Positions 2,036 to 64,000 of a DNA stretch of 64,000 nucleotides are shown one piece after another (position 1 is the stretch's first letter; each line of letters opens with the position of its first letter). The position numbers and the translations under genes are program-made. The stretch is taken from contig JAGIQG010000004.1 in assembly GCA_024679065.1 (NCBI GenBank), forward strand, positions 54,808,001 through 54,872,000. Direction: 5' to 3'. The notes beneath the pieces were generated by a model. That model ran no database searches, was not told the origin of the DNA, and saw only the letters and a list, made by a program, of their open reading frames with translations. Source of the stretch: Sphyrna mokarran (taxonomy: Eukaryota).

Positions 2036-2336
2036 GGGACGGCATGGTGGCATAGTGGTTAGCATTGCTGCCTCACAGTGCCGGGTTCAATTCCAGCTTT
2101 GATGACTGGTGGAATTTGGTTATCCCCATGTCTGTGTGGGTATCCTCTGAATGCTCCGGTTTCCTCCCACACTCCAAATAGGTGACGATTAGGTTGATTG
2201 GCCATACTAAATTGCTCTTTAATATCGAGGGAACAGAAGAGTAAATATATAGCGTTAAATATAGGGCCGCTGTAAGTTGTTGTGGGTGCAGGTACGATGG
2301 GCCGAATGGCCTCCCTCTGCACTAGGGATTCTATGA
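2036..2336 (+). mobile_element. tRNA-derived V-SINE (HE1-like) with CR1-type 3' tail
   Basis: A/B-box head (tggcatagtggttag, ggttcaattcc), V-domain gctccggtttcctcccacac, tail gggccgaatggcctccctctgcact...attctatga. Confidence 0.85.
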
Positions 2337-3804
2337 GAGAATGTAAGACAGTGGAAGACAGTTTGTGTCAGCTTGTGTGAGAGTATTACGGGAGATGAGA
2401 AATAATGTAGGGAGGTATGTTCTTTTGTGGGGAGGCCAAGTTGACGAGGAAGGCAAAGGGGAGGGAAGGGGCAGAGTAGTGGTGGGTGCGGGATCAGATT
2501 ATGCCAATAAGTCTGGCTCACTCCCAGTATTAGGGCTCCCACATATCCTCAACCACAAATACTACAGTGTATTCACATCCAATCTCACAATGAATGAGGA
2601 TGAATGAGTGTACAACTGGAGGCTTGGACTGAGTCAGAAACACAGTTTCATCCTATTGTGATTTAATGTTCATCTTTATTAATTGCTTAAGAAAATTGTT
2701 TCTTCCCTACCTCTATTATTAAAATGCATATTTAAGGTTGTGCCAAAGATTTCCGAAATTTTCTCATTGGCTTATCGAATGAGAAAACAGGTGTCCTTCA
2801 CCGTCCGCGAATAGGTGGGACATGCGTTGTACAAACGAATGAATTGCAAGTGTGCCTTTGACAATCTTTATTTCAAGCTATGCACATAGAGTCAACTTGC
2901 TGCCAAATACATAAAGCGTCTACTTCCTGCCTTAAAAGACAGACAGTGTAGCACTGTCTGCTGCATTAATGATCTTTCGTTGTTTGTTTTTAAAATAGGC
3001 TGTCAGGATTTGGATGTGTGGAGTTTACTTTAAAAAGTCGCATCATAGAAAAGTAGTTCTTCGAAGCAAATAGTGGGGTCTTCAAAACGAAATTGGACAG
3101 ATATCTGAAAAGGCGAAAACGGTGGGGTTTTGAGGAAGAGCTCAAAGTTAATACGAATTGCTATATTCTTTTAAAATATCTACTATACAGACCCGATGGC
3201 TTTCTTTTGTCATGTCGGTTTGTATGATTTCACACGCCCACGTAAGTAGATGCAGGTTTGAATGACGAAGTACAACTACTAGCTACTTTTGTATTTGGTA
3301 GACAGATTTATAAAATCGAGCTCCAGCCGTTTCACATCAAGAGCGTATCGAAGCTGGAAGTCATAATGCAGCAAAGCCAGACATAAAACAATATCCAGGT
3401 TTAACAGTGTCAATCACAAAATGGGTACGATTTGTTATTTTGTAAGAGATCTGTCCACCTTTTTTCTATTATTGTGAGATTTCTTACTGTACCAATGTTT
3501 TTTTCCAGTATTCATAGATGCTGATAGGTATAGCAACGTGATTAGTGTATTATTGCAATGGAAAAAGAAGCGACAGCTCATCAATTAAATAAAACGGATG
3601 TAACCGTAAGGTATGACAGAGTAGCTACCATTTTCTACAAGATAGTTAAAACAATATTCGTCAACAAATCGAAGACTAATTAATAGTGGAAGGCAAAATT
3701 CTCAGAACTATTATTGGAATTATCTTACATCTTGGAAGGATGATATCACACCATTCATACACAGCTGGAATATTAATTGCTACTCGTTTCTTACTTCTGT
3801 ACAG

Positions 3805-23025: not shown

Positions 23026-23029
23026 AACA

Positions 23030-26620: not shown

Positions 26621-27357
26621 GAGGAAAACATCTGCAGCCATTGAACTGGGAATTGTCGGATTGGCCTCACTGGTAGAATTAAAGACAACTGAGGCACCTT
26701 CGCCAAGCAAACGGCAAAGGAGACGGCGGGAGGCATGCCCTTTAGGCAATGCCAGCCTCAATCAGGAACTCTCCCATTTTTACACTAGCTGGACAGTCAG
26801 AATCATTCTCGTAAAATTCCTCCCGCTGTCTCTGTTCTCTCACTGTAATTTGTTTCCCCTGTGCAGCCGTGTTTGCTGTGCAACTTTCTCAGTGAAAGCT
26901 TCCGCCATTTAACTTACTCCAAGTCGTAAATACATGGTGAACAATGTTGTTAGTGCATTCTGACTGGCCTAACTACGGCAAGGCTAATATTCAATTGGCT
27001 TAAGGCGTGCGTAATTGGTGTGTGATTGGTGAAAGAAAATAAGATCAGTTTCTCATTGATTTCTTGAAAGTGATACAATTTCCCATTTTTCAATGATTGG
27101 CCCACTTGTAAATGACAGAAACATTAGTTAAATTGATCTCAGACCCAAAAGTACAAGTCTAGCTTGGATCACTGACTTTTAATGGAGAGAGGGATGATAA
27201 AATAAATGGAGAACAGGAGAATTAAAAGGGATCAAATTCCGAAAAATGTAACAATATTTTTTCACTTGACGCCATTGTTTTCAGTGCACATGGATGAATA
27301 CCCAGTTTTTGTCTCCTTTTAGCGACAAGGTATTAGCAACACATAATATTTTGTTAT

Positions 27358-30300
27358 AAAGAACAAAGAACAACACAGCACGGGAAACAGGCCCTTCGGC
27401 TCAACGAGCCCACGCCGCCATTTTAACGTTCCCACTTCCACCCATGACCCTTGTCTATGTTTGTAGAAATCTGCATTGGAAACCAGACAATTGGGCAGAC
27501 AATTTAGGGACAATTTGTTTCACCAATCAGCCTAAGAGCACATGTTTGGAGTGTGGGACGAAACCGGAGCACCCGGAGAAAACCTACGCAAGCACGGGGA
27601 GAATGCGCAAACTCCAACAGATACCGGCCCAAATCCCTGTATCTGCATAGCAACAGTGATAGTCACTGAGCTGTCGTGTTGCCCATCAACTGGTCCATTT
27701 TAAGCATACACTTACGACGTGAAGCAATAGGCTAGTCGCGAAAAATCCAAGAGCAGCCTTCTCACGACTCATCGCGTGTATGCCCCTTGTTGGACAGAAG
27801 TACCTGTAGGATAAAAGAGAAATACATCAATAATATGCATAACTTATACAATTCCTAGGAACGTCCCGAGGTTCATGATCCTAATTATATCCCTCCATCC
27901 CTATTCCGCTCATGTGCCTATGTAAGTATCTCTTAAATTACTTCACCGTGTCTGCCTCCACCACCTTACTTGACGATGCATTCCATACTCCCAAACCCTC
28001 TGTGTGAAAAACCTCCCTCTAACATCCAAATTATATTTTGCCCCCCTCACGCTAAGCCCGTGGCCCCTCGTGATATTTGATTCCATCCTAGGAAAAAGCT
28101 TAATCCTGTTTACTCTATTTATACGCCTCATAATCTACACTTCTATTAGATCTCCTCTCAGTCTACGTCTTTCTAAAGAAAACAGCCCCAATTTGCCTAA
28201 CCTCTCCTCGTAACCGAGATCTTCCATACCAGGCAGCATCCTGGTAAACCTCTTCTGCAATCTCTCCAGGGTCTCCACGTCCTTCCGGTAGTAAGGCGAC
28301 CAGATCTGCACGCGGTATTCCAAAAGAGGTCTAACCAACGTTCTACACAACTACAACATTAAACGCCAGCTCTTGTACTGTATACCCTTTCCTATAAAGG
28401 CTAGCATACCATATGCTTTCTTCACAACTTTCTCCACTTGCTCTGCCACCTTCAGAGACTTGTGCACCTGCACCCCCAGATCCCTCTGCGTTTTTATACT
28501 CTTAATAGGTCTCCCCCTTATCATATATCTCCCCTCTACATTCTTTCTCCCGAAATGCGTCACCTCGCATTTATCAGGATTAAATTCCATCTGCCATACA
28601 TCTGCCCAATCTACCAGTCTACTTATGTCCTGCTGTATCGCCCGACACTGCTCCTCTCTATCCGCAAGTTCAACCATCTGTGTGTCATCTGCAAACTTGC
28701 TGATCACACCACTCACTCCCTCTTCCAAGTCATTTATATATAATAAAAATAGAAGAGGTCCCAGTACTGAGCCCTGCGGCACACCACTAGTCACCAATCT
28801 CCAGGTAGGGAAACACCCTTCCACTACAAAGAACAAAGAACAACACAGCACGGGAAACAGGCCCTTCGGCCCAACGAGCCCGCCCCGCCGTCCTAACGTC
28901 TTAATGACATATAGAGACCAATATAGAGACAATTTGTTACCCAATCAGCCTAAGAGCACATTTTTGGGATGTGGGAGGAAACCGGAGCACCCGGAGAAAA
29001 CCCACGCAACCACGGGGAGAACGCGCAAACTCACGCAGACACAGGCCCAAATCCATGTGTCTGCACAGCAACAGCGATAGTCTCTGAGCTGTCATGTTGC
29101 CCATCTGATGGTCCAGTTTAAGCATACACTAACGACATGAAGCAATAGGCCACTCCTGAAGTAACATCCAAGAGCAGCCCTCGCACGACCTGCCGAATGC
29201 ATGCGCCTTGTTGGTCAACAAGGTGGACCGAATAGCCTGTGGAAACAAATAAAGTATTTAAACAGTCATCCTATATCCCTCTATCTGCAGACCGCTCATG
29301 TGGCTGTCCAAGAGACCCTTAAACAACCCTAGCGTGCCTGTTCCCACCACCTTACTCGGCAGTGCATTCCACACCCCCACTACCCTTTGTGTGAAAAACT
29401 GCCCTCTAATATTCGTCTTATACATAGCCCCACTCACCCTAAGGCCGTGACCCCTCGTTCTATCCGAATCTAATGGTGGAAAAAGCTTACCACCATTTAC
29501 TCTATCTATACCCCTCATAATCTTATATACCTCGAATAGATCCCCTCTCAGCCGACGTCTTTCAAGGGAAAACAACCCCAGTGTGTTCAATCTTTCCTCG
29601 TAAGACAGCCCTTCCATGCCAGGCAGCATCCTGGTAAATTTCCTCTGCACTCTCTCCAAGGCCTCCACATCCTTCTGGTAGTACGGCGACCAGAACTGGA
29701 CGCAGTACTCCAAGTGAGGCCTAACCAACGTTCTATACACTTGTAACATCAGACTCCTACTCTTGTATTCTATACCCTTCCTATGAAGGCTAACATACCA
29801 TACGCTTTCTTTATCACTTTCTCCACCTGTACTGACACCTTCAGAGACTTGTGAACCTGCACCCCCAGGTCTCTCTGCGTCTCTATACTCCGGATAGTTT
29901 TACCTTTTATCATATAACTCCCCTCTACATTATTCCTGCCAAAATGCATCACCTCGCATTTATCCGGATTAAATTCCATTTGCCATCTATCTGCCCAGTC
30001 TACCAGCCTATCTATGTTCTGTTGTATTGCCTGGCACTGCTCCTCAGTCCCCGCCAATCCAAGCATCTTAGTGTCATCAGCAAATTTGCTGATCACACCA
30101 CCTACCCCCTCTTCCAAGTCATTTATATAAATTTATATAAATATAAATACTTCTCTCTGTCTGCTATTACCAAGCCAGTTATTTATCCATCTAGCTATCT
30201 ATCCTTGTATTCCATTAGCGTTGACCTTTTCAACTAACCTCCCATGAGAGACTTTGTCAAACGCTTTACTGAAATCCATATAGGCGACATCAACAGCTCG

Positions 30301-31010
30301 TCCTTCATCGACCGTTTTCGTCACCTCCTCAAAACATTCTACCAGATTCGTAGGGCACGATCTCCCCTTAACAAAGCCATGCTGCATATCCCTAATCTGA
30401 TCACCATGCTCTAAGTGCATATGCATCCTATGTCTAAGAATCCTCTCCAACAGCTTCCCTACCACTGACGTCAAATCCACAGGCCTACAATTTCTAGGGT
30501 TATCCCTACTACCCTTTTTGAGCAACGGTACAACATTTGCTATTTTCCAGTCCTCTGGGACCTCACATGTGTCCAAAGAAGAGACAAAGATTTGCGTCAG
30601 AAGCCCAGCAATTTCACTTGCGCCTCCCTAAGCACTTGGGATAAATGCCATCAGGCCCCGGAGATTTATCAGTTTAACTGCTACCTGAAGCTCTAACACT
30701 CCCTCCCTCGTAATAGATATTTCCCTCAATGGTCTCCAGCTCCCTCCAAGACAGTACCGGTCAACAAACACCTCTCCTTTGTGAATACTGACGCAAAGTA
30801 TTCATTCAGGATCTCCCCCTTCCCTCGGGTTCTAAGCACAGATCCCCTCCTCTGTCCTAAGAGGGCCGATTTTTGCTCTAACCACCCTTTTATTCCTAAC
30901 ATAGGCGTAAAAAGCCTTTGGATTTTCCTTAATCTTGTCCGCCAAAACCATTTCATGCCCCCCTTTTTTGCCCTTCTAACTCCCCGTTTGAGCTCCCTCC
31001 TACTCTCTCT
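27358..31010 (-). mobile_element. CR1 LINE copy A (27358-28827 + about 30148-31010) with SINE-containing 3' UTR
   Basis: Near-intact ORF2 pieces (SGVPQGSVLGPLLF, KFADDT, RLRGDLIEV). The RT frame broken at 28827 resumes at about 30148 after nested copy B. Confidence 0.9.
28828..30147 (-). mobile_element. CR1 LINE copy B, 5'-truncated, nested in copy A
   Basis: ORFs 29770-30117 and 29258-29749, same chimeric 3' UTR and (CTTTGTT)n tail. Confidence 0.9.
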
Positions 31011-40500: not shown

Positions 40501-43500
40501 TCTCATTTATGGGATGTGAGCTTTGCAGACGAAGCCAACATTGCCCATTCTCAATTGCTCCTGAACGGAATGGCCTGCTAGAAAGTTGCAGAGGGCAGTT
40601 AAGAACCAATCACTTCGCTCTGGCTCTGAAGTCACATGTAAACCCGGCTGAATAAGGACGGCAGATTTCCTTCCCTGAAGGACATTGGTGAACCAGAGTG
40701 GCTTTTACCACAATCGATCACAGTCTCATGGTCACTATTACTAAGATTAGCCTGATACCCCATAGCTATTAATTGAATTATGTTTCCAGAAGCTGCTCTT
40801 GTGGGATGCGAATCCATGTCCTTAGATTGATTACTTGCCTGAATGCATGGCTGACTATATAAATCGATTTGAAGACATTGCATTAAATTCAGTGTAAAGG
40901 CACTTTAATGTTTCTGTTGATACTTCTCGTGAATTTTCGTGATTATTAATATGCATAAAACTTACGAAAAATTTCACTATGAATTCTACTGTAGGTGGCT
41001 TTCGTTTTACAATAGTTTTTCCCCTACCTTGGTTAGATTTAAGAATTGTGTAGGCCACAATAGCCGGAGTCTTGAGGGTGACATGAGATACCAGACATGA
41101 AATATTGACGTCCCTCGGTACAGGCTGATTCTCAACCAAAGTGCTGGAAACTTCATACAGTCCATCTCTGTTCTGCACTTTACTGGTGTGTATTCCTGAT
41201 GAAGTTTCGACGCCATTTTTATACCAAGTGAGGGTGTAATTTTCCGGATAAAATGCAGCTGTTTCACAGACAAGGATCAGAGGCACAGTCGAATTCCCTT
41301 CAGTTGTCCTGGAGAAAAGATTTAGTGGGGTTGGGGCCACTGCGGAGCAGAAAATGAACAAAGTACTGTGCACTGTTTGGAAAAATTAAATATACTTATG
41401 GCGTTCGGTTAATATTCTTACTCACTGGTAATTCCTATTCGTTGCATTTGAATATTACACACAAGATCAGTGTAGATCTAATACATATAAAGACCGACAT
41501 TTGATCAACTCCAATAATTTTTGAATTCCGTGTGGGATACGGTGAGGTAATTTGCTAATCAACGTTTAAAGCGGCTAGAGAATTAAATATTGATGAGACC
41601 GTCATCTCGCTGAGTTCTTACGTTGTTTTGTATGCAATGACATGACAGAGAGTGACGAATAATAATCATATTCTTGATGATAAAATGAGCATTGTAATGC
41701 TTCTTTAAAGCCACAGCTTGGTATTTGATTAAACAAACAACTTTCAGTTGACTCTGCCGAAGTTTCGCCAAGATGTAGAGATGCCGGCGTTGGACTGGGG
41801 TAAACACAGTAAGAAGTCTGACAACATCAGTTTTAAATCCAACCGATTTATTTAATAGTAAACTCGCAAGCTTTCGGTTTTATGGCCTTCGTCAGGCGAA
41901 TGAGGTGTTCTGTTCTCCAATAGCACACATATCAGCGCAGACAGTTTACGATCACTGATTAGAATGCGAATCTTTACACCTAACGTACACCTAGCGGTCA
42001 CGGGCATTCGCCCTCCGACCTTCGGGTAAACGTTCTTCAAGGGGGTCTTCACGACACACTACAGCATAGAGCCGCTGAGCAGAGACTGATAGCCAGGTTC
42101 CGCACACATGAGGACGGTCTTAACGGGGATCTTGGCATCATGTCACACTATCTGTAACCTCCATGACTTGCCTGGGTTAGCAAAAAAATCTCACTTACTG
42201 GAGATAATACACATCTCTCTAACCTGTGCTCAGTGCTCCTTCACTCACATTGTTAGCCACTTTAAGACTTGAATGGCAGGTTAGGTGTAAAGATTCGCAT
42301 TCTAATCAGTAATCTGTAAACTGACTGTGCTGATATGTGTGCTATTGGAGAACAGAACACCTCATTTACCTGACGAAGGCTACAAAGGCCGAAAGCTTGC
42401 GAGTTTACTACCAAATAAATCGGTTGGATTTAAAACTGCTGTTGTCAGACTTCTTACGAAATTTCGCCAACACAGCCTCTCTGTTCAATTGCAGGCAAAA
42501 TATTGCAGACGCTGGAATCTGAAACAGCCTCTCTGTGTTGTTTATTTATTTGAAAATTAGTGAACTGGCAGCCATGTATGTCTGAAACTCCAATCTGTTG
42601 AGTAAATCGATTTGGTCCACAGTTAAACATTGAGTATTTGAATATGTGCCGTATCGTTCTTTGAAATTTACTTTAAGGAATACTTGTATTCATGGACTAT
42701 TAAAACTAAGCCAAAAGCTTTGTGTATATATCTTGGGAATAGCCCAGTAGTATAAAAGATTTTCAGTTAATTTTACTTTAGGAATTCATTCTGAATGTCA
42801 CCAATGTAAATCTGGTGCAGAAATTCACTTCATTGTTGTGATGTGTTTGATAAATATTACTAATATATTCAGTACTCTCCGAGTGGCATTGCAGGTATAA
42901 TTAGCATTTTTAATGTAGAGGACACGAATAAACAACTAACTTATCGTGAAATATGTTCATAGGCATGATTTCCCCGACAAAAAGTATGCATATCCCCGAT
43001 TGTTGCGTTTAATATATTATGGCGATCTCCCTCGCCATGTATTTCAATCTTACCATGTACAGTTAGCTGCGATCCAGTTCCATTTCCTTGACCTTCTCCC
43101 TGACAGATCACCGTACAGTAATGGGTCCCAGCGTCTTGCAATATCACATTTGTTAAGCGAAAGAAACGACTCACTTTATTTTCCATACCAAACTTTTTTC
43201 TCTTGTCTGAGCTTGAATGCAGGAATTCGTTCTCACCATGTTTCCACCACAATACCCGTACCCAGGATTGGGATGGAAAAATGGGGAATATGCAGTAGGA
43301 GGTGAAGTTTCCCCCTCTGGATACAATCATTTCTACTGGCGTTTGGGACACAGTGAACGAAGTATGGTCCGTATCTGTCAGAAAGATAGACAAACATACG
43401 TTAATTGCATTAGATACAACATAAATGTAGAAAAGTGAAGAGAGGAATTAAGGTTTTTTAAATTGATATGAAAACTATTTCCTTGGAAGTTATTAATTAA

Positions 43501-44947: not shown

Positions 44948-46924
44948 AAAGTAGTTTTTTTTGGATACAATTATTCAACCAGAGAGAGTGCTTCATACTC
45001 AACGGTGTCTCATTTCCAGCTCCGTCGATTATGAGTTGGATGCTCACTCCGGAGGCTTCAAAAGTTAATCTGAATTGCAAGATATTGGTCTCCTAGGTGA
45101 ATGCTACAGTATTAGAGATGTCGCATTTCGGATGAGGTGTCCAGTAGCCGCAACTGCTTCGTAAAACTGCCTTTTCTTCTCCAGTTCTTACTTCCTTTTT
45201 CCCCCCTTTCCATGAAACATTTGCTCCTCGATGTGAATTGGATCACATCGAAGATTAACTACTGCGATGGGAACACCAAAATGAATGGTGAAAAACGAGA
45301 TAAATATTACACAGCCAACTGAGACAGCCAACCGTCTTAGTGTGAAGATGAATTCGGAATTGGGAGAGATTGTGCCCAGTTTCACGGAATTCAGTTATTC
45401 AGATAGGCAGGAGACGTTGGGAACATTCTTTTTAGAACAGAAACAAGGAAAAATAAATGTGATAATAGTTTTCGAAACTATGAGTGATTTTACAGAAGTA
45501 AATTGGGAATTTGTTTCTAGGATTTGTAAGGTAAACACGCACATCTATCATGATTAGCAAATTAATCAGAGATGAGAAACATTTATGGTCACTGCACTAT
45601 ATTCTCCCTTTTTCCTTCAGGGATGTTGAGTCGCTGGAAAGACCACCATTTGTTACTTATCTCGAATTGCCCTATCAGAGCATAATCAGGAATTAACCAT
45701 TTCGTTGTAGATCTGGAGTCACGTGCCAGCCAGACTGGACAATAAGACAAATTTCCTTCTCTAAGAGGTATTACTGAAAAAAACATCACTAATGGTAGAT
45801 TTAGATTCCAAATAAAATAACTGCAGTCAAGTACCTCAATAGCTTAAATACGAGTGAATGTGCTGGTATTGGATCCAATGCTGCCAAATCGTTACAATAG
45901 ATCTTCTTAATTATTTGGTCAGTCATTACCACCTAAACCACCGTCTTCGCACTCTGTACTGCTCATGCTGAGCAATGTTTGGCATCAAATAAACGGATGC
46001 CAAAACTTTCGAAATACTTGACTGAAAAACGTTTTAATTGCAGCCCATTAAAGGAGCAGCGTTAAGTACTGAATTCGATTACACTGAAACAAGTTGCGGG
46101 AGATAATACTGATCAGGAGAGAAAATAGGTATGTTTACGTAAGACCGAGTTTCCACGGAACTTTGAAGCTGCTGTCCTGCATTTATGTGGTATCGGAACA
46201 TTTTGGTTTACGCTGATATGGATCGAGTACTACATCTTAAAAAAAAGATGTTTGGAGCAACAAACCACTAACTAGTAAGGAAAAGGAAAATATGTCCCCA
46301 AACCGTGGCTTGACCACAAAAAAAAGTCCTTGATCAGTTGAAATGCGCGATTATTACATTGAATATTATGAAGAGAAATAAGGATATCTAACAATAACAT
46401 ACCACAGAAAATTGGGAGCTAAAGGCGAACATTCAAAGATGAATAAAAGTGGACATTTATAAGAAAACAAGTACCAAATATTATGATAGAATTCTATATT
46501 GATAGAATACCAATACTTAATGGCAAATGTTCACGTCAAATCTATGCATTAGCAGAACAAGAGAAAGGGTGCTAACATAATCTTGTTATTCTTTATAGTT
46601 ATTCAGTCAATTTGCTTTTCGGGATTTTAAAAGCTTCATGAAAGTATATGGTTCAATATCTAAGCCTGGTACAATAATAAATTAATTCTTGTTTACCTCG
46701 CAACATTTGCAGAAGCAACGAATTCAGTGCGTTCTGATTATCGGAAGTTGACAAAATTTTCCAACAGGCATTTTTTTGCACTCTCGGTATTCTTGCCTTC
46801 TATTTTTTTCTGCGAATTATTGTTAGTTTCATAATCACTAGTGTAATGAAACTATCCTTTTGTAGTTTGGATTAATATGTTCTGATGCATTTTCTGCTCA
46901 AATTGATGAAGCCATTTGACAAAA

Positions 46925-47062
46925 GCAAAACCAGAATTATTGAAAACCAGACAGTTTAGTTCACGAGAATGCCTTAATGGTGAGACAGTCAACAAAAACA
47001 AAACCAGAATTATTGGAAACGAGACAGGTTAGTTAAGGAGACAGCCTTAATTGTGAGACAAT
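46925..47062. repeat. About 73-bp diverged tandem duplication
   Basis: caaaaccagaattattg.aaac.agacag.ttagtt...gccttaat.gtgagaca occurs twice. Confidence 0.8.
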
Positions 47063-48129: not shown

Positions 48130-48600
48130 AAAAAAAGAAATATGCTTCCATTATCGACATATACAAATTGAAAGAATCTCTGCAATCTTATGAATCTCAC
48201 TTTTCATCATCAGAAAAGTATTCAACAGACTCCTATCGAGCATTCAGTGCATCATCTTGACCAGATTGTGCAACCAGAGAGATAAAGTGGTTTCAGAAAA
48301 AGTTAAGGGAGATAAAATAGCATGTCTGCAGAAAGACGGCTCAAGGATGAAAGTTAGGGAAATAACACGGACTTCGTCACCACTTTTGTTAACCTGACCA
48401 TTTCCTTCAACACATTCCGTCATGAGAGCATTTGAAAGGTACTGGAGAAGTTAGGCTGCACTGGGAAAGTCATCACAATAGTTTAGCAGTTTCACCACGG
48501 CGTGCTGACGGATGTATTAGATGATGCTGAGTCATCTGACTCATACCTTGTCACTAATGGAATAAAACAGGGCGCCGTGCATGTTTTTGTTAATCAGCAG
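48130..48600 (+). mobile_element. Old RTE-type LINE fragment
   Basis: Decayed KVLEKLGC..KVITIV.QFHHG...VTNGIKQG, homologous to the RT segment at 4430-4610. Confidence 0.6.
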
Positions 48601-48602
48601 GA

Positions 48603-49185
48603 CCAAAGAACAAAGAACAAAACAGCACGTGAAACAGGCCCTTTGGCCCAACGAGCCCGCGCCGCCACCTCGATGTTCCCACCTCTTCCGTGATCCCTGT
48701 CTATGTTTATAGATCTGTGGATTAAAAACCAAATTTGAGACAATATAGGGAAAATTTGTTTTGCCAATTAGCCTAAGAGCACATCTTTGGAATGTGGGAG
48801 GAAATCGGAGCACCCGGAGAAAACCCACGCAAGCACGGGGAGAATGCGCAAACTCCTACAGACAAAGGCCCAAATCCATGTATCTGTACAGCACAGCGAT
48901 AGTCACTGAGCTGTCATGTTGCCCATCAAATGGTCCAGGTAAAGCGTACACTAACGACGTGAAGCACTAGGATACTCTCAAAATCCAAGAGCAGCACTCT
49001 CACGACCCATCGCGTGTATGCCCCTTGTTAAACAGCAAGGTGGACCAAAGCACTTGTAGGATAAAAACAAGTGCATCAATATCATCGTCTATTTACACAC
49101 TTCCCAGAGACTCCCAAGGCTCATGATCCCGATTTCAAATCAAATCAAATTTTCTATACCCCTCCATTCCCATTCTCTTCATGTG
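48603..49185 (-). mobile_element. CR1 3' end with SINE-containing 3' UTR (copy C)
   Basis: Last ORF2 codons (GMEGY) followed by the same linker, V-SINE body and tail as copy A. Confidence 0.85.
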
Positions 49186-50534: not shown

Positions 50535-51697
50535 AATTTTCCCTTGAAAGACGTCGGCTGAGAGGGGATCTTTTAGAGGTATATAAGATTATGAGGGGTA
50601 TAGATAGAGTAAATGGTGGTAAGCTTTTTCCACCATTAGAAATGGATAGAACGATGGGACACGGGCTCAGGGTCAGGGGGGGCTATGTATAAGACGAATA
50701 TTAGAGGCCAGTTTTTCACACAAAGGGTAGTGGGGGTGTGGAATGCACTGCCGAGTAAGGTGGTGGGAGCAGGCACGCTAGGGTTGTTTAAGGGTCTCTT
50801 GGACAGCCAAATGAGCGGTCTGCAGATAGAGGGATACAGCAGGACTGTTTGAATATCGGGAGGACCAAATAGTAGTAGACTATCTTTTAGTTTCGTCTCG
50901 GGAATGTCTTAGTTTTTAGCATGTTTAATTAACGATGGGACACGGGCTCAGGGTCAGGGGGGGCTATGTATAAGACGAATATTAGAGGCCAGTTTTTCAC
51001 ACAAAGGGTAGTGGGGGTGTGGAATGCACTGCCGAGTAAGGTGGTGGGAGCAGGCACGCTAGGGTTGTTTAAGGGTCTCTTGGACAGCCAAATGAGCGGT
51101 CTGCAGATAGAGGGATACAGCAGGACTGTTTGAATATCGGGAGGACCAAATAGTAGTAGACTATCTTTTAGTTTCGTCTCGGGAATGTCTTAGTTTTTAG
51201 CATGTTTAATTAAGTCTTATTTGTTTCCGCAGGCAATTCGGTCCACCTTATTGACCAACAAGGGGCATGCATGCGGCATGTCGTGCGACAGCTGCTCTTG
51301 GAGGTTGCTTCAGGAGTTGCCTAGTGCTTCACGTCGTCAGTGTATGCTTAAACTGGACCATCTGATGGGCAACATGACAGCTCAGAGACTATCGCTGTTG
51401 CTGTGCTGACACATGGATTTGGGCCTGTGTCTGCGGGAGTTTGCGCGTTCTCCCCGTGGTAGCGTGGGTTTCCTCCGGGTGCTCCGGTTTCCTCCCACAT
51501 CCCAAAAATGTGCTCTTAGGCTGATTGGGTAACAAATTGTCCCTATATTAGTCCCTATATGGGAATCTTCAACAATAGGCATAGCCTAAAGACAAGGATA
51601 TGTCATTAGGACGTTAGGACGGCGGCGTGGGCTCATTGGGCCGAAGGGCCTGTTTCCCGTGCTGTGTTGCTCTTTGTTCTTTGTTGTTGTTCTTTGT
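50535..51697 (+). mobile_element. CR1 3' end (copy D, close to copy B) with SINE-containing 3' UTR and internal 281-bp tandem duplication
   Basis: FSLERRRLRGDLLEVYKIMRGIDRVNGGKLFPPL nearly identical to copy B; 50650-50930 is repeated at 50931-51211. Confidence 0.9.
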
Positions 51698-54669
51698 ACA
51701 TACTTCTCGATAATTGGTGAAACGTAGAGTTCACCGAAGGACATACCTGCACCCTATACTCTTTGCTTATTTTTCATTCTGTATTTTCTGCAATTATATT
51801 TTACATTGGATTTCCTCTTTTAATAATCATAGATTCATGCAGTGATAGTATGCCACGCCACATAAATTGACTTTAGGGTCGGATGTGTAAATTTGGGTTT
51901 GATTGATTCCTACACTCCAGCTTTTCCCCCATAATTCCCCCCCCCCACCCCCACATTCCCGAATAATTCTTCAGGTAAATGGAAATTTGATTTTCTACCT
52001 ATTTCTACTATTCTTTGAAGTAGCACATTTTAAAACTTAAATCCGTTTGAAAACATTTCTGCTAAATTCCACTTAAATTCTGTTCTCAACTATTTTGCCA
52101 AAATTCTGCGACCTTGAGCTACCGACGCAATCGTTTCAAATTCGGTATTTTATAATTTCGGTCTCTATTATTTTGACAAACTAATCGCGAATTATAGGAT
52201 ATTTCAGAAACGGCTGGTTTAGATATGCATATGTTCCAATGATCACTCATTTTCTAGAAACGTAGGGAATCAGTGGAGATTTGTTGTTTTATGCAATTCT
52301 CAAGTTTCTCTGCAATAGTTGGACTTTTTTTTTAGCATTAAGCAACACAGCACGGGAAACAGGCCCTTCGGCCCAACGAGCCCGCGCCACCGTAATACCA
52401 AATCATTATCCTATTTTAATATTCCTATATAATAATATATATATTAATCCTAATTTGGAAAATTTTCACCATAGGGACAATTTGTTACCCATGTGCGTAA
52501 CATCCCCCAGCCAAATAAAGAATGCGGTCCATTAGTTCACTTCTCCGCAGCAACGGTTTAATTTTATATTTAGTTCATTGCAGCATCGTGGGAATCCGCC
52601 GCATGCAAATAAAGAAGATTAACTTTCGTATTTCATTTCTTAGTTTCCAGAATATGAGATTCTTTATCCTGAATATATCATATCTGATCATTTCTTTCTA
52701 TTCCTGGATATTATTCAAAATACGCAATTAATCGCAGTATGTGTTTCTCAATCCTGTCGCTTTGCATTTTTTTGTGCGTGTGACTCGTCTACGACGGTGA
52801 CATTTCTTGAATGTTTTGTACCAAATTTCTCCATGCACTGCAACAAACTTCCGCTGACCATATGGGATCCAACTATGTTTTCTGTTGACCAGTATGGCAA
52901 AGGGCGAGCAGATTTTCCATATTTGTTACTGCTTTAGACTAATGCTGCTGATTAAGGTTGCCCGTTGTGATTACATTGTTCATGATAGTTAATCTCCGCT
53001 GAAGTTGGAGGGTTCCTCTCAAGCCTATATAGCCATGCATTGAATGGGAACACCTGCTCTGGAGAATTCGCGCTGAATGCGCTTACTTGTCCGGGAAAAC
53101 GGTGTCACTTACAACTGCCATTGTAGCTTTTTTTTTCATAAAAACGGGCAGACACTTGATTGGATTGCTCGCACACTAATTGAAGACTGATACAATGTAA
53201 GTCACTTTTTCTCGATAAAGATCACCGACTGCTGTGTGAGATTCTTGATGGCGAGATAAATGCAATAAAGCATATCTTTTATAAGATAGAACATAGTAAT
53301 GGCTGGGAATCCAATTAATTTATCTGCAGTATTAGATTTGGTAATGAACATTCTTATCGAGCCTGAAGTTGTTAAGCTCCTAGATGCGACGAAGAATTGC
53401 AATCTGGGTGATTTCATACACATTCTTAGGGGTTCAATGGAAAGATGCGGAACCATACATGTTGGGAAAAATGTCATTGGAAGTGTTGTCCAACAAATCC
53501 CATTGGTCTCAGCTTGACTTGCAGAATTATGAATCGATCAAAGTATTTTGTGGCATTTGGAGAGCCCCTATGGATCAATCCCACACCGAGTGGTCCTTCC
53601 ATCAGTTTGGAACATTTTGGTAGCACAATTCCATCAAAACATGCTGTGGCAATTCCGCTGGTAGCAAGTGCATCGCCCCCATCAACACCCACATCCGTCC
53701 TCCACCGCCCCGCCCCCACCCCACCACCAACAGCGCCACTGAACACCACCCATTACACAGTATGCATGTTGGTGGCAAAGTTTCCCGCCTTTCACCTGTT
53801 GGCGACATTTCCCTCCGAGGACTTCGGTCGCTAGCAGGCAACGCCTCCGTTCTCCAACTAGTTTTTCCCTTTCCCCACAACTTAACTTTCAGAACGAATG
53901 GCTGGCAGATATTCCGTCTCACTGCAGTGTGAAATCGATGCTCTTTTCCGCTCTTTGTGGCAATGGAGACAGGATCGAAACAGTTTGCTCCTTGCTGAAT
54001 CAATCAAGGCTACATTTACTCTCCTCTCCCATACCAAACATCAACCTACCCTGCTCTTCCAGATCCGATAAATTTTACGCTTATTCCTATCCTAGGGCCG
54101 CATTACGTGATTGTTTCATGTGTCAGTATAATGCTTATAATGCATCATTTAAAAGCTTGACTGTTAATTTCTATAATTGTGAGATCTCACTATATGGCGA
54201 ACACGGTGTAGAAGACATTAATGGAGTGCATAGATGAGAGTAATGGTGAATGTATATTTAGCTTTAATATAAATACGTGGCCAATGAGGATGAAAGGCCT
54301 ATACGGCTACCTGTATGAGAAGACTAAATCGCTGCTGCCGAAATTTTAAGGCATCTTAAGAGGAAGATAAGCTTGTGAGTGAGTGGCGTTTTTCCAATGC
54401 ATTTTTTACAAATAGTTATTAACTTCGGTAAAATAAGTGTATTTGCACATGTTGCCTGGGTCTGGAGCATCTGCACCACTCCCTTTTAGGGATAGGGAGA
54501 AAACGTTGAGCCCATTATAATTGTCATTTTTCAATTCTACTGCCACGGTTTCTGTGTACCACGACGATACGTGAGTAACATGCTGGGGCGTACTGCGGGG
54601 CTTCCTCGCACTTAGTGAAGAATTTGAACCGCATTTACATAAAGGGTTGAATGTTAAATATTTAGACTT

Positions 54670-57600
54670 GTAATCATAGAATCATGGAACAATGAAGAGG
54701 CCCTGCCGCCCATTGAACCTGCATCGCCATATTAGAATCACCTGAACTCCCGCCTAATCTCATCAGCTGGCACTTGGTCCATAGTCCTGGATGTTATGAC
54801 GTGCCAATCGCTCATCCAGGTGCACTTTAAAGTATGTGAAGCAACACTCCCAGGAGTGCATACAGGCCGTTACCAACCTCTGGGTAAAAAAGTCTTCCCT
54901 CACATGTCCCCTTAAATCTCCTGTCCCTTACCTTGAACCTATGTCTTCTTGTGACTGACTCTTCAACTAACGGGAACAGCTGCTCCCCACCCACTCTGTC
55001 CATGTCCTTCATTATCCTGTACAAGTCGCCCCTCAGTCTTCTCTGCTCCAACGAAAACAATCCAAGCCTATCCATCCTCCCTTCATAGCGTTAAATGTTT
55101 CATTTCAGGCAGCATCCTGGAGAATCTCGTCTGCACCCCCTCGAGTGCAATCAACTCTTCCTATAATATGGTGACCAGAACTGCACACAATACTCTAGCT
55201 GGTGTCTCACCAAATTTCTATAGAAAGATTACTTTCCTGCTTTTGTAATCTATGCTTTGATTGATAAAGGCAAGTGTCCCATATGCATTTTCACTATTTT
55301 ACTAATATGCCCTTCCGGCTCCAGGGATCTGTGGACTAACATGCCAAAGTCCCTTCGTTCCACGGAATTTCCTAGCTTCGACCATTCATTGAATGCTTTC
55401 TTATCAAATTACTCTTTCTAACGTGTATCCCCTCACACTTTCCAGGGTTAAATTCCATTTGCCACTTATCCGCCCATTTGATAACTCCATTTATACGTTC
55501 TTTTAGGTAGGTAGCCCCGCTGCTAACCACCTGGCAAATCTTTGTGTCATTTGCAAACTTATTAATGCTTCCCCACGAAGTCATCTATGCCATTTCCATA
55601 AAAGACAAGTAATATAGGGCCCAACACGGATCCCTGTGGTTGCAAATCGACTGTGGCTTCCAGTCACTAAGAAGTCAGTAAGAATTTAGCAACACCAATT
55701 TATAATCCAACCGATTTATTTGATAGTAAAAAAGCGAGCTTTCGACTCCTGTGTCTTCCTCAGGCAAATGCAGTGTTCTGGTTTGCAATAGCACACATCA
55801 GCATAGACAGTCAGAGATTGCTGATTAGAATGCGAATCCTTACATCTAACCTGCTATTGAAGTGTTAAAGTGGCGAACAATGTATGTGAAGGGAATCCTG
55901 AGCATTGTTGGAGAATTGTGTGTTTTCTCCAGACAGCACAGTAAGTGAGGTTTTTTGCTAACCCAGGCAAGTTACGAGGGTTACAGATAGTGTGTCATGA
56001 AGCCAAGATCCCTGTTAAGTACCTAATACGTTGCAAGAAAGGATGTCCCGAAGCATGGTATATTGGGGAGACCATGCAGACACAACGACAGCGGATGAAT
56101 GAGCATCGCTAAGCAATCACCAGGCAAAACAGTTCCCTTCCTGTGGGCGAACACTTCAGCAGTCATGGGCATTCGGCCTCCGACCTGCGGGTAAACGTTC
56201 TTCAAGGGGGCTTTCGTGATACATGACAGCGCAGAGTCGCTGAGCAGAGACTGATAGCCAAGCTCCGCACACATGAGGACGGTCTTAACAGGGATCTTGG
56301 CTTCATGACACACTATCTGTAACCCCCGTAACTTGCCTGGGTTAGCAAAAAACCTCACTTACTGTGCTGTCTGGAGAAAACACACAATTCTCCAACAATG
56401 CTCAGGATTCCCTTCACACACATTGTTCGCCACTTTAACACTTGAATAGCAGGTTAGATGTAAGGATTCGCATTCTAATCAGCAATCTCTGACTGTCTGT
56501 GCTGATGTGTGCTATTGCAGACCAGAACACTGCATTTGCCTGAAGAAGACACAGAGAGTCGAAAGCTCGCTTTTTTACTATCAAATAAATCGGTTGGATT
56601 ATAAATTGGTGTTGCTAAATTCTTACTGAGTTCTTACCACCCCAATCCAACGCCGGCATCTGTACATCCAGTCACTAAAGCAGCCTCCTGCCATCTGTCT
56701 CTCATACAATAGAACGGATTCTGAATCCACTTTATCAAATTGTCCTTTATCCCATGTGTATTTACCTTCTTTACAAATCTCCGATATGGAACATTGTCAA
56801 AGATTTTGCTGAAATCCATTTTAACCATGTCTACAGCACTACCTGCGTTTACATACCTGGTAACCATCTCAAAAAATTCAATCAAATTTGTTAGCAATGA
56901 TCTCCAGTTCCCTTCGCCCCGCACCCCATCGCACGCCCGGATAAAGCAGCCATGACTATTCAAGTGGACATGGATGCTCTCCTTCAGAATTTTTCTAAAG
57001 GTTTCCCCTGTCAATGACGTAAAACTCACTGGCAGGTTGTTATTTGCATTATCTCAGCAACCTTTTTTAAATAGCGGAACAACATTCGCTGTTCTCCAGT
57101 CATCTGACAACCCCGCGTAGCCAGAAAGGAATTGAAAATTTGTTTCAGATCTGCAATCTCCTCCCTTGTCTCCCAGAGCAGCCTAGGGCTCAATCCATCG
57201 GGAGGGAACTGGAGATTTATTCTCTTATAAGGCTGCCAATACTTCCAATACCTTGCCCTTCCCGATGTAAATTTTCTCAAGAACCTCAAAGTCCCTTTCC
57301 CTGAATTCCATACCATCGTCCTCATTGTCTTGGGTGACAACGGATTCATTCAATCTCTCCCAATCTCCTCTGGTGCCACTTATGCATCGCCCTCTTGGTC
57401 CCTAATGGGCCCCACTTTTCCCTCATTAACATCTTGATATTATTAGAGAATATCTTGAGATTATCTCTTCTTTTACCAGACTGAAATTTCCCATATCCCC
57501 TCTATGCTTTCCTAATTTCTTTCTTAAACTCCATCTTGCACTTCCTATACCTCACTAATATTTCCACTGATTTGTTCCCCTTCTACTTTTTAAAAAGGGT

Positions 57601-60000
57601 TTCTTTTCCTTCTAATTATATTGTGAATATCTCTGGTCATCCATGGTTGTCTTGGGTTTTTTTTGTGTGTCTTCTTATCACCCTAGGGGAAACATGCAGG
57701 ACTTGTACCCTACCCATTTCACTTTTGAATGCCTCCTCCGTCCCCCACCATTCTGCTCTTCAGAAGATTTTGTCATTAATAATTGTTCCCAGTCTACTTT
57801 GGCCAGATCTTGAACTATTTTACTAAAATTCACTCTCCCAATCTAAAGCCTTTTTTGCAGCTTGTTTATTTCCTTGTCCATAACAAGTTTGAATTGTACC
57901 ATGTTGTGACCGATATCACTAAAATGTTCCCTCACCAGTTCTTCAACCTCTTGTTTGGCTTTATTCCACATAATTGGGTCTAGCATACATCCTTCTCTTG
58001 TTGGACCCCCTACATATTGATCTACAAAGTTCTCCTGCACATGTTTCAAGTAACGTATTCCATCCAAGCCTTTAACTCTATGTATATTCCATTTACATAG
58101 AGTTGCTACGAGAGCACAACGTTTTAAGGTGCTGGAGAGTAGATACAGAGGAGATATCGGGGTGTTTTTTTTCACTCAGAGGGTCGTGGGTGAGTGGAAA
58201 CGACTACCATCGGTGGTAGTGGAGGCAAATTCGATAGGGTCTTTCAAGAGATTTTTGGATAAGTACATGGAATTTAATAGAATTGAGGGTTATAAGTAAG
58301 CCTAGTAGGTATGGATATCATTTGCACAACTTATGGGCCAAAGGACCTATTTGTGCTGTAGTTTTTCTATGTTCTATGTTCTAATGTTGGGAAAATTAAT
58401 ATCATCTAATATAATAATCATACTGATATTGTTTCGCACACAACCGCAAACTTGAGCACATATTTTCTCCTCAATATCCCTCTCTGTTCTATTCTACCCA
58501 CAAAGTTTCATCAGATCCCCTTTCCAAAATTGATTCCTTAGTTAATCATGTAATGCCCCTTCTTCTTTTATCTCCTCTTCTGACCCGTCTGAAGGCTCTA
58601 CATCCTATGTGTTGGGTTGCCAATCGTGCCCTTCCTTCAATCTTGTCCCTGTGATGGCAACTATATCACATTATGTATGTACTAATCAACTCAACCGAAT
58701 CAACCGATTCAAGAACAGCTACTTTCCTGCTGTCTTCAGTTCTTTGAATGGGGCCTATCTCATATTGAGTTGATCATTAGCTACATCCCAGCCATGACTG
58801 TAACACTATATTTTGTAGCCTCTCCTTTCCTTCTTTGTGTATGGTATGCTTTATTTGTATAACATGCAACAAACAATACGTTTCACTGTATAATGATACA
58901 TATAAGAATAATAAAAAAATAAAGTTATCAATTTCAATTCAATTTTACGTGCAATTCTCCTGGCGTTAAAGTAGAGGTCATCCAACCTGATCTTACTCCT
59001 TTGAAACGTAAAACAGCTGCAACTCCTCTGACTTGATTGTTTTACTGTATGATTTGGTGCCCTTATTCTGTGCCCCCTCCCCTCCCCCCGCCCCCGCGCA
59101 CCCTTATCCCCGCCGTGTTAATTTAAACTGCGCCCAATAGCACTAGCAAGAATGTTAGTTCCAATCTGATTCAGATACAGAACGCCCTCTTACATAGGTC
59201 CCACCTTTCCCAGAAATTGTCCCAGTGATCCAGGAGTCTGAAACCTCCCTTCTGCACTATTAAGCCACGCATTAATCTGCACCATCCTGTTACTTCTGTG
59301 TTCGTTATTACATGGCATTCGGATTTCAACCCGAGAGGTCCTGTTTTTCAATCTAATGCCTAACTTCCTGAATACTTCATGCAAGACCTCACCCTCTTTC
59401 TATCATTGGTACCAATATGTACCGTGACCTCGGCCTAATCACTCTCTCCCTTCAATATACACTGTAGCCGTTCAGTAACATCACGGACTCTAGCATTAGA
59501 AAGGCCACTTATAATGCGTGAGTCACGTTGATGGATACAGTAGTGCCTATCTTTTACGCAATTATATAATCCCCAATTACCATTGCGCTTCTACTCTCTC
59601 CTCCTCCTCTTATACAGATACCCTGCTTGTGGTCTCAAAAGCTCTGCTCTGCCAACACCGCCTGGAGGAACCAGCGCCCTCATCGGGCTCCAAAATAGAA
59701 TACCGATTTGCAAGCAAGGCATCAGGGGGCTCCTGCACTATCTGTCTACATCTCTTGGAGTGCCCAATGGTCACCCATTCCCTTCCTTCTTCAAATTCAT
59801 TCAACTGCGTTGCAACCACCTTCCTAAGTGTGCTATGCACAATGTTCTGACCCTCGCGGGTGTTCCACCATGTCTCCAGCTTCGGCTCCAGCTCCAAAAC
59901 CCGAACTTGAAGGAACTGTAGCTGCTCCCTTTTAAGCGCACATGCTGGCTCTGCGCGCTGGAAATGCGCCCGGCCTCCCACATGGAGTAAGAAGAGCAAA
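54670..60000 (-). mobile_element. Long decayed CR1 LINE (ORF1 to 3' tail) with nested insertions
   Basis: ORF1-like RVLELE..LET..EWVT..LANRYSIL at 59610-60089, then endonuclease, RT and 3' tail. Interrupted by Penelope (55671-56666), a plus-strand CR1 tail (about 58090-58385) and a Rex1 tail (about 58690-58920). Confidence 0.85.
55671..56666 (+). mobile_element. Penelope-like element: about 345-bp inverted arms around a GIY-YIG fragment
   Basis: 55676-56019 is a near-perfect reverse complement of 56284-56629; centre reads YLIRCKKGCPEAWYIGET..RMNEHR..VGEHF..E..LI..L.T...GLNRD; TSD TCCAGTCACTAA. Confidence 0.92.
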
Positions 60001-62621: not shown

Positions 62622-63963
62622 CAACTTTCTGAGTTGTTCGTAGTTACTCGCAATATATTTAAATATTTTATTATCTCTGCCGAGGTAAAAAAAAAATCCG
62701 GTATAAAACTTTACAGTCAAGAAGATATAACAAGTTCCCAATGGAAAATGCAGGTGAATATTATAAATTGCCAAACAACAATTATAATTGCAGCGAATAA
62801 AACTAGAGTGCAATCTTATAAAGTACATTAATTAACAGTTGAATTAAATACATTTTGTTTCGTAGGAAGGTTCGCATACAGGAACATACGGCACAGGAAC
62901 AGACCATTCTATTCTTCGAGCCTGCCGCGCCATTTAATGAGATTATGGCTGATCATTCCTTTCAAGGTAATTTTTTCGCACAATCCCCATATTCTTAAAG
63001 ACACAGAGGCAAAATACTGCGGACGCTTGAATCTGGAACAAAAGCAGAAAATGCGGAGGTACCTCAGAACGTTTGGGAACATCTTTGGAGAGAAAATAGA
63101 GCTAAGATTTCGACTCTGCATAACCCTTCGTCAGGGCTCAAATATTCCTTAATAACTTCGCTGTTTAGGAATCTTTTGGTCTCTGTTTTAAGCAGACTCA
63201 GTGACGGCAGAGTCCTCCGGGGCAGAACATTCTAAAGATTTGTCACGCTCTGAGTGAAGAAATCACTCCTCATTTTAGCCCTAAAATGCCTATCCTGATT
63301 ATGAAGCAGCATATTCTACTCCTGTCAGCGGGCATCACCTTCACGAATACTACCCACCCTCACAAGCGAAAATCATCATTAATATTAGTAATTAAGTAAA
63401 GAACGGACTTGCATATGGGTAGGATCTATATTTACTTTTTACTTATTTCATCTTGTACGCAATAGTTTTGAAATTAGACCAAAATAATAAACATGCAGCC
63501 AAAGATTCCAGCAATTTCTACACATTTTCATACAGAAGTGTAATGAGCAAATGATGAGTAGTGAACTTCCGTTGTGGGTTTTGCATATCAACTGGACATG
63601 CCCGACACATTAAAGTGAGTTGCCTCCGACGCAGAATATCTGGAACAATTACACTAATATTGTACTCACGAAACAATTTTTTTATAATCTTGCACGTCCC
63701 GAACAGATGCCGGACCAGGGAATTTTCACTATAACTTAATTGCCGTGTTAACGTAAGACTACTTGTGACACTAAAAAGTGAACTAAAAAATTTCTTAATA
63801 TATAAATGCCACTTAATTTACATATAGTTCAGGAAAACTTAATCATTTCTCATGTTTGCTATATACTGCTCTCTAATTGGTAAAGATTCATTATTGTTTA
63901 TAACTGGGTAGATTGATACACAGAAATAGCTTAGAATGGTATAGTTGATCTTTGCTTTTTAAG

Positions 63964-64000
63964 AGCAACACAGCACGGGAAACAGGCCCTTCGGCCCAAC
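63964..64000 (-). mobile_element. 3' tail of the chimeric CR1 family running off the window (another partial copy at about 52340-52490)
   Basis: caacacagcacgggaaacaggcccttcggcccaac identical to the tail of copy B. Confidence 0.8.

What the first reader, a model, noticed from the sequence alone, without database searches (positions are those of the whole stretch)
50850..51697. A CR1 LINE family that captured a whole V-SINE as its 3' UTR and 3' end
Seen in four copies (27358-27900, 28828-29257, 48603-49185 and here): the ORF2 end, a linker, an eroded tRNA-SINE head (GGGCAACATGACAGCTCAGAGACTATCGCTGTTGCT versus GGGACGGCATGGTGGCATAGTGGTTAGCATTGCTGCC of the free SINE at 2036), a well-preserved V-domain (GGAGTTTGCGCGTTCTCCCCGT...GCTCCGGTTTCCTCCCACA), then the CR1-type terminal stem and (CTTTGTT)n. 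Copies fall into at least two subfamilies (A/C and B/D), so the chimera itself propagated. Known: HE1-type SINEs took their tail from a CR1 partner. Inference: here the flow is reversed, with the LINE using its parasite's tail; the Pol III boxes decayed while the V-domain was retained, hinting that the V-domain has a function in the retrotransposing RNA.
Basis: partly seen in the sequence, partly recalled or inferred. Interest (0 to 1): 0.7.

Follow-up and report, generated by a model that had tools for sequence, protein, structure and literature searches.

The report
Shark LINE carrying a disabled V-SINE
A CR1 retrotransposon family, likely from a shark, carries the head and V-domain of a V-SINE, with its promoter boxes lost, inside its 3' UTR; both pieces have stayed unusually alike between two diverged subfamilies, so they likely serve the LINE as an RNA element rather than being passive cargo.

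Summary
The structure is real. Four copies with unrelated 3' flanks share this order: CR1 ORF2 stop, spacer, ~150-nt linker, tRNA-derived head, V-domain, terminal stem-loop and (CTTTGTT)n. They form two subfamilies whose ORF2s are one clade (UFBoot 94) and kept evolving as coding sequence, so the chimera spread as an autonomous LINE.

(1) The terminal 42 nt resemble the tails of some plain CR1 LINEs (33-35/42) more than the window's free V-SINE tails (25-29/42). The LINE likely kept its own tail, with the SINE as an internal passenger.
(2) The Pol III boxes are dead, but the head did not keep decaying. Between subfamilies it is as conserved as the V-domain (2/58 vs 5/105 diagnostic sites). Head plus V is more conserved than the linker (17/133) and than RT third codon positions.

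Best reading: one ancient capture, promoter loss, then likely purifying selection on head+V. Gene conversion is the main rival. Evidence is four copies in one window. Ten literature searches found no such LINE, but Repbase and Dfam could not be searched. New variant of a known kind; interest 0.5.

The parts
50537..51133 (+). Copy D: 5'-truncated CR1 ORF2 3' end, including a perfect 281-bp tandem duplication (50650-50930 / 50931-51211); stop codons at 50850-50852 and 51131-51133
   Evidence: tblastn; duplication
51134..51216 (+). Copy D: subfamily-specific spacer (57-72% to A/C; mostly deleted in B)
51217..51366 (+). Copy D: shared linker of unknown origin, with a predicted ~90-nt hairpin; starts at a pyrimidine tract + CAGG
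   Evidence: no meaningful Rfam match
51367..51426 (+). Copy D: tRNA-derived V-SINE head; A-box consensus not met, B-box core absent
   Evidence: by-eye comparison with published V-SINE consensuses
51427..51531 (+). Copy D: V-domain
   Evidence: 75-76% to the free SINE at 2103; 69/77 to a published frog V-SINE consensus by eye
51532..51620 (+). Copy D: variable mid-tail; SINE-like at its start (similar to the free SINE at 22880), then subfamily-specific; likely holds the SINE-to-LINE switch point
   Evidence: alignment
51621..51697 (+). Copy D: CR1-type terminal stem-loop and (CTTTGTT)n
27355..28820 (-). Copy A (A/C subfamily): RT and C-terminal part of ORF2 (stop ~27881-27883), linker 27684-27821, head 27626-27684, V 27520-27625, tail
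28823..31000 (-). Copy B (B/D subfamily): ORF2 with RT (stop ~29258-29260), linker 29102-29253, head 29043-29102, V 28938-29042, shortened mid-tail; its 3' end abuts the 5' end of A; 5' limit approximate
48600..49185 (-). Copy C (A/C subfamily): last ~45 nt of ORF2, spacer, linker, head 48866-48924, V, tail
52335..52490 (-). Fragment E: end of the V region, a third type of mid-tail, same terminal stem; 5'-truncated
63955..64000 (-). Fragment F: same terminal stem; runs off the window end
2036..2337 (+). Free V-SINE S1 with intact A and B boxes (comparator; others at 10555-10862, 21385-21480, 22700-23040, all minus)
58105..58385 (+). Plain CR1 of the neighbouring ORF2 group, with an ~85-nt 3' UTR and no SINE (comparator)

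Best explanation
This is a CR1 LINE family whose 3' UTR holds a V-SINE head and V-domain without working Pol III boxes; it likely arose by one capture into an active master element, likely kept its own lineage's terminal stem-loop, and has likely held head+V under selection as an RNA element since.

Shown: the shared architecture in four dispersed copies; two subfamilies in one ORF2 clade; continued coding constraint on RT; loss of the A and B boxes; equal, high conservation of head and V between subfamilies.

Inferred: (1) A V-SINE entered the 3' UTR upstream of the terminal stem, by insertion or by RT template switching (which of the two is not resolved). (2) The internal promoter was lost early, before the A/C-B/D split; this would stop the passenger from being transcribed on its own and competing for the RT. 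(3) RT still initiates on the terminal stem-loop and repeat, as in other stringent LINEs. (4) The remodelled head, the V-domain and probably the linker hairpin act in cis on the Pol II transcript, most likely on RNA stability or RNP assembly. Step 4 is untested.
For: Architecture and unrelated flanks.
CR1 identity: Pfam RVT_1; named hits are bird, turtle and elasmobranch RTs, with the best named identities (54-63%) in elasmobranchs.
Single origin: A+B+D form a clade, UFBoot 94 (16 rows; C left out for lack of ORF2).
Autonomy after the split: 34 of 60 A/B differences in 119 RT codons are at third positions, p=0.0002.
Conservation, diagnostic A=C vs B=D sites: head 2/58, V 5/105, terminal segment 0/63, linker 17/133, mid-tail 10/44; head+V vs linker p=0.01. 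A-B differences: head+V 19/163 vs RT third positions 34/119, p=0.0006. Conserved blocks alternate with variable ones, which a single tail swap would not give.
Tail: 33-35/42 to plain CR1 tails at 58335 and 11201 vs 25-29/42 to two free V-SINE tails.
Pairing: the hairpin folded from the free head keeps 7-8 of 9 Watson-Crick pairs in the embedded heads despite 15-20 changes in 41 nt (null ~4; p=0.006-0.026). A second helix joining the head end to the start of V shows the only 2 two-sided changes among 49 predicted pairs. The linker hairpin folds at z -3.6, -4.7, -1.7, -3.8.
Against: Only four copies in two subfamilies, all from one window; no genome-wide count.
Head+V is not significantly more conserved than the whole RT coding stretch (p=0.15).
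The pair-keeping signal falls to p=0.07-0.27 when G-U pairs count. Covariation is not significant for either helix (119/500, where my two innermost pairs were out of register; 101/500). Head+V has no unusual folding energy (z -0.6 to -1.3). The linker hairpin bounds were chosen after seeing the fold (untrimmed z -1.7 and -2.6).
Tail identities overlap: four other plain CR1 tails score 25-32/42.
Gene conversion among V-containing repeats or between subfamilies could mimic conservation.
No relatives from other genomes were obtained.
Confidence: 0.6

Rival explanations
1. One reading: the LINE replaced its 3' end with a whole partner V-SINE, tail included, and now initiates reverse transcription on a SINE-derived tail; only V is functional.
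For: SINE-like sequence runs past V into the mid-tail (alignment). A partner SINE would carry this lineage's tail anyway, so the tail comparison cannot exclude it. A free V-SINE sits directly behind a LINE 3' end at 23040, showing how such a fusion can start.
Against: The terminal 42 nt match two plain CR1 tails better than the free V-SINE tails in the window. No same-strand relic of an earlier LINE tail was found upstream of the head (motif scan). The head is as conserved as V.
Confidence: 0.15
2. Neutral passenger: the capture is real, but head+V have no function; their similarity between subfamilies comes from gene conversion or a module swap.
For: V-domains have been suggested to promote 3'-end exchange (passage in PMC4758252). 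Structure tests are weak. n=4.
Against: The derived head occurs only in the chimera here, so free SINEs cannot be the donor. Three separate conserved blocks (head+V, linker stem, terminal stem) flank variable ones. V stayed ~90% identical to distant published V-SINEs (by eye) while the head next to it changed ~30% and lost its B-box.
Confidence: 0.17
3. The captured unit was a composite SINE whose true head is the linker (for example a 5S-like head added in front of a degenerate tRNA head); the tRNA boxes died in the SINE, before capture.
For: 5S+partial-tRNA composite heads are known (passage in PMC4824008). The linker is structured and shares a few short words in order with 5S-derived heads shown in a supplement (by eye).
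Against: Rfam, which includes a 5S model, gave no 5S match at E<=10 on 104-2051-nt inputs. 4 of 4 linkers have ORF2 upstream, and no free linker-headed copy occurs in 64 kb.
Confidence: 0.08

Closest known systems
HE1 SINE / HER1 LINE pair of sharks and rays (Ogiwara 1999; listed in PMC3747384 Table 1; original not held, details recalled)
   Same: Same host group, CR1-clade LINE, V-SINE partner, shared type of terminal stem.
   Different: As recalled, HER1 and HE1 share only the 3' tail; here the LINE holds the SINE's head and V-domain. I could not compare with the HER1 sequence.
MER6/MER6A MITE (PMC6887750; passages and supplement seen)
   Same: Another transposon captured a V-SINE, disabled its head and spread the V-domain.
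   Different: MER6 is a non-autonomous DNA transposon with no RNA step. Here the carrier is an autonomous retroelement, and the head is kept and conserved.
LINEs with SINE- or tRNA-like pieces: RTE-1_DAn, Ingi-3_AC (PMC5786205, parts 2-4 read); BovB with SINE fragments (recalled only; the paper was not held; searches did not confirm it)
   Same: SINE-type sequence inside an autonomous LINE.
   Different: Other clades; the Ingi case lies in the 5' UTR. That Repbase-wide survey says no sequence similar to conserved SINE bodies had been found as their source, and the parts I read report no LINE with a V-domain.
Template-switch chimeras such as U6/L1 and Alu/L1 (bioRxiv 10.1101/2025.02.02.635956, passages)
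   Same: A plausible route of formation.
   Different: Those join the small RNA to the 5' end of truncated insertions; here the SINE is 3' of ORF2 and was inherited by active masters.

Membership tests
CR1-clade LINE | ORF2 with a non-LTR reverse transcriptase closest to CR1 | tested here: met
   RVT_1 in A and B; named hits are bird, turtle and elasmobranch RTs; tree with elasmobranch and turtle proteins. No L2 outgroup was in the tree; reading those hits as CR1 rests on my knowledge.
CR1-clade LINE | 3' UTR ends in a hairpin plus a short microsatellite (PMC4316615) | tested here: met
   Terminal stem-loop folds in A, B and D; 7-nt CTTTGTT repeat
CR1-clade LINE | Most copies 5'-truncated | tested here: met
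   A, C, D and E are truncated at different points; B's 5' end is approximate; F runs off the window
CR1-clade LINE | ORF1 and APE endonuclease in the full-length element | not testable with these tools
   No copy in the window extends that far; no eukaryotic DNA collection was available
V-SINE (embedded unit) | ~80-bp V-domain | tested here: met
   75-76% to free S1; 71/77 (B vs MER6A consensus) and 69/77 (D vs frog V-SINE consensus), counted by eye from the supplement of PMC6887750
V-SINE (embedded unit) | tRNA-derived head directly 5' of V | tested here: met
   Ranks 3-6 of ~128,000 positions; 29/42 ungapped to the Ac1_RL consensus by eye; weak by plain local alignment
V-SINE (embedded unit) | Intact Pol III A and B boxes (independent transcription) | tested here: not met
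   0 of 4 copies match either consensus (recalled patterns). B-box core deleted or unrecognisable. So the unit is V-SINE-derived, not a working V-SINE.
V-SINE (embedded unit) | Occurs as free dispersed copies | tested here: not met
   All 4 derived heads in 64 kb follow the linker and an ORF2 end; one window only
HER1 LINE family | Sequence identity to HER1 ORF2 and tail | not testable with these tools
   Papers not held; no Repbase or Dfam
5S-derived (SINE3-type) head, for the linker | Homology to 5S rRNA | tested here: inconclusive
   No 5S Rfam hit at E<=10; only short shared words by eye

The most novel reading that the evidence does not exclude
An autonomous LINE has domesticated its own parasite. 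It silenced the V-SINE's Pol III promoter, rebuilt the tRNA head by pair-keeping changes, and now depends on head+V as a cis-acting RNA domain held more tightly than its synonymous RT sites. It would be the first LINE in which a SINE 'highly conserved domain' is under selection for the mobile element itself.
Probability: 0.35. Interest if true: 0.75.

Novelty: new variant of a known kind. Interest (0 to 1): 0.5.

Why it matters
Why SINE central domains (V, CORE, Deu, Meta) stay conserved for hundreds of millions of years is an open question; the proposals are host benefit, recombination hot spot, or help to the element (PMC5499810; PMC4824008; PMC4758252). A LINE that carries V in cis, with no Pol III transcription, separates those options. 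Conservation in the master lineage cannot be host exaptation of single copies, and the domain can be deleted in a standard cis retrotransposition assay. The case also shows SINE-to-LINE sequence flow, and it warns that shark repeat annotation may count these LINE 3' ends as HE1-type SINE copies.

Tried and rejected
Segmental duplication: rejected (flanks unrelated; A and B are adjacent but only 73-83% alike in ORF2).
Independent SINE insertions: rejected (same linker, same derived head and junction in 4 of 4).
Conserved ORF in the 3' UTR: rejected (frames open in one copy have stops in others).
Known structured RNA: Rfam at gathering found 0 in the window; E-value scans gave only chance-level matches in the element. 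ARAGORN found 0 tRNAs.
Long-range pairing between the linker's 5' end and the terminal stem: a 16-22-nt inverted match has p=0.014-0.084 in four copies, but duplex energies are no better than shuffles; kept as a weak lead.
Relatives elsewhere: linker-head pattern in GTDB genomes, 0 matches; linker+head in plasmids, none; translated V+head frame, no candidate in the word-index search and 106 hits in the HMMER search, none above 59% identity among those reaching query residue 44 or further, where family members should be far higher (judged from the table alone).
The tail comparator at 22773 was out of register and was dropped from the ranges quoted.
Literature: ten searches listed no LINE with an embedded V-SINE. 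The library lacks Ogiwara 1999/2002, Walsh 2013 and Repbase Reports; supplement file 1 of PMC4824008 could not be searched; bioRxiv supplements are closed.
The metagenome and viral contig collections stayed unchecked.

Full report
Context. The window is 40.7% GC and rich in non-LTR elements. An Ig V-type exon at 43049-43372 matches SIRP-like proteins of Mustelus asterias (66%) and Heptranchias perlo (55%), 2 hits among 48 candidates. The best named identities for ORF2 are in elasmobranch proteins. The host is therefore most likely a shark (inference).

1. Observation. Self-BLAST and alignment show four copies, A-D, each running ORF2 end, spacer, ~150-nt linker, head, V-domain, variable mid-tail, terminal stem and CTTTGTT repeats. 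The 3' UTR is ~435-566 nt, against ~85 nt in the plain CR1 at 58105-58385. The 3' flanks are unrelated in 15 of 15 pairs. D has a perfect 281-bp internal duplication, C keeps only ~45 nt of ORF2, and two more tail-only fragments exist. B and D are 95% identical in ORF2; A differs from them by 25-27% at the ORF2 end and from B by 17% in RT.

2. Is the head real? An ungapped, transition-aware scan with the first 36 nt of either free head ranks A-D 3rd to 6th of ~128,000 positions, at the expected place 5' of V, with mismatches mostly transitions. Only A beats every window-wide shuffle. Published V-SINE consensuses in the supplement of PMC6887750 (compared by eye) agree: A matches Ac1_RL at 29 of the first 42 nt without gaps, stays collinear up to the B-box, and then lacks its core. 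The V-domain matches at 71/77 (B vs MER6A) and 69/77 (D vs a frog V-SINE). No copy has an A-box or B-box consensus; the free SINE at 2036 has both (consensus patterns recalled). The unit is V-SINE-derived and is predicted not to be transcribed by Pol III.

3. Did the chimera propagate as a LINE? In a 16-row ORF2 tree (C left out) A, B and D form one clade (UFBoot 94). It groups (98) with plain CR1s: window copies at 58k, 13k and 55k, and Stegostoma and Hypanus proteins. Of 60 A/B differences in 119 RT codons, 34 are at third positions (p=0.0002). Both subfamilies thus descended from coding-competent masters that already carried the SINE.

4. Whose tail? All CR1 and V-SINE ends in the window share a GGGCCRAAnGGCC-type stem. 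Over 42 nt from that stem, A-D match plain CR1 tails at 58335 and 11201 at 33-35, four other plain LINE tails at 25-32, and the two usable free V-SINE tails at 25-29 (a third SINE row was out of register and dropped). SINE-like sequence continues ~25 nt past V and then gives way to a variable stretch. The simplest reading is that the LINE kept its lineage's RT-recognition end. This fits the strict stem-loop recognition shown for zebrafish L2 elements (PMC4176376, passages). The margin is modest, and a vanished partner SINE with the same tail cannot be excluded.

5. What is conserved? Between A/C and B/D, identities are: head 88-95%, V 87-89%, terminal segment 90-95%, linker 77-78%, mid-tail 63-65% against D, ORF2 end 73-75%. 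Diagnostic sites are head 2/58, V 5/105, end 0/63, linker 17/133, mid-tail 10/44; head vs V p=1.0, head+V vs linker p=0.01. A-B differences in head+V (19/163) are well below RT third positions (34/119; p=0.0006), but not significantly below all RT sites (p=0.15).

6. Structure. Using only pairs folded in a free head, the embedded heads keep 7-8 of 9 Watson-Crick pairs despite 15-20 changes in 41 nt (null ~4; p=0.006-0.026), but p=0.07-0.27 if G-U counts. An extended helix chosen after seeing the data gave p~0.0005, which I discount. A helix joining the head's end to the start of V, around the lost B-box, holds the only two double changes among 49 predicted pairs; its covariation is not significant (119/500), nor is that of the first helix (101/500). 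Head+V has ordinary folding energy. The linker's ~90-nt hairpin is stable in three of four copies (z -3.6, -4.7, -3.8; C -1.7; bounds chosen after the fact). The linker matches no Rfam family. Structure-level selection is suggested, not shown.

7. Mechanism. Shown: architecture, single clade, coding constraint, promoter loss, block-wise conservation. Inferred: one capture by insertion or template switching upstream of the terminal stem; early promoter loss, which would keep the passenger from escaping as a competing SINE; initiation on the LINE-type stem-loop; and a cis role of head+V, most likely in RNA stability or RNP assembly. A free V-SINE directly behind a LINE 3' end at 23040 and the B-A head-to-tail join show that such fusions arise locally. 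Overall confidence 0.6. Rivals: neutral passenger with conversion 0.17, whole-tail replacement 0.15, composite linker-headed SINE 0.08.

8. Known systems. HE1/HER1 is the nearest pair (table row in PMC3747384, passages; the originals were not held, so their content is recalled). MER6 shows V-SINE capture by a DNA transposon (PMC6887750, passages and supplement). Kojima 2018 (PMC5786205: abstract, parts 2-4 of 5, supplement passages) compared Repbase SINEs with LINEs, notes tRNA-like or Ceph-SINE-like pieces in RTE-1_DAn and Ingi-3_AC, and says no sequence similar to conserved SINE bodies had been found. Also seen: PMC5499810 (part 1 of 6); PMC4824008, PMC4758252, PMC11481361, PMC1513397, PMC5381603, PMC4316615, PMC4176376 and bioRxiv 2025.02.02.635956 (passages only). 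Ten searches listed no CR1 with an embedded V-SINE. Repbase and Dfam could not be searched; recent shark libraries may already hold this consensus, and supplements I could not see may bear on that. The element is a CR1 by every testable feature. The embedded unit fails two V-SINE membership features (promoter, free copies), so it is V-SINE-derived.

9. Verdict. Real; a new variant of a known kind. The conserved, promoter-dead head+V in an autonomous LINE makes the function of SINE conserved domains testable in cis. The evidence rests on four copies and no outside relatives. Interest 0.5.

Noticed in passing
window 22700-23150 (-): A free V-SINE with a clipped head follows directly on the 3' microsatellite of an old plain CR1: a one-off LINE-SINE junction of the kind that could seed such a chimera.
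   Followed up: partly
window 28820-28823 and 30130-30200: The 3' repeat of copy B joins directly to the truncated 5' end of copy A (possible template-switch tandem). B lacks ~70 nt of RT starting at about the ORF2 position where A begins.
   Followed up: no
window 50650-51211: 100% identical 281-bp tandem duplication inside copy D, which is otherwise 5% diverged from B: a very recent event or an assembly artefact.
   Followed up: partly
window 51217-51233 (and the same site in A, B, C): The shared linker begins at a pyrimidine tract + CAGG that looks like a splice acceptor (recalled motif; C has CAAG).
   Followed up: no
window 51228-51244 vs 51637-51653: A 16-17-nt inverted match between the linker's 5' end and the terminal stem in B, C and D (p=0.014-0.084); the site is partly deleted in A.
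   Followed up: partly
window 40855-43447 (-): Ig C1-set and V-type exons; the V exon matches SIRP-like proteins of Mustelus and Heptranchias.
   Followed up: partly
window 4542-5708 (+): Uninterrupted 388-aa frame with an RT C-terminal part (RVT_1) and a terminal C2H2-like motif; looks like an RTE-type LINE (recalled) and may be young.
   Followed up: no
window 55668-56019 / 56284-56636; also 13399, 26403-26618, 33180, 38316, 41772-42457: A 353-bp inverted repeat at 97.7% and a dispersed family of related repeats; weak Rfam miRNA-like matches below gathering at 26480 and 38362. Possibly a fold-back or MITE-like family.
   Followed up: no
window 52335-52490 (-): Tail fragment with the family's terminal stem, an AT-rich third type of mid-tail and an A-rich end instead of CTTTGTT repeats: a possible third subfamily.
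   Followed up: partly
window 46919-47060: Tandem pair of ~70-nt units, 87% identical.
   Followed up: no
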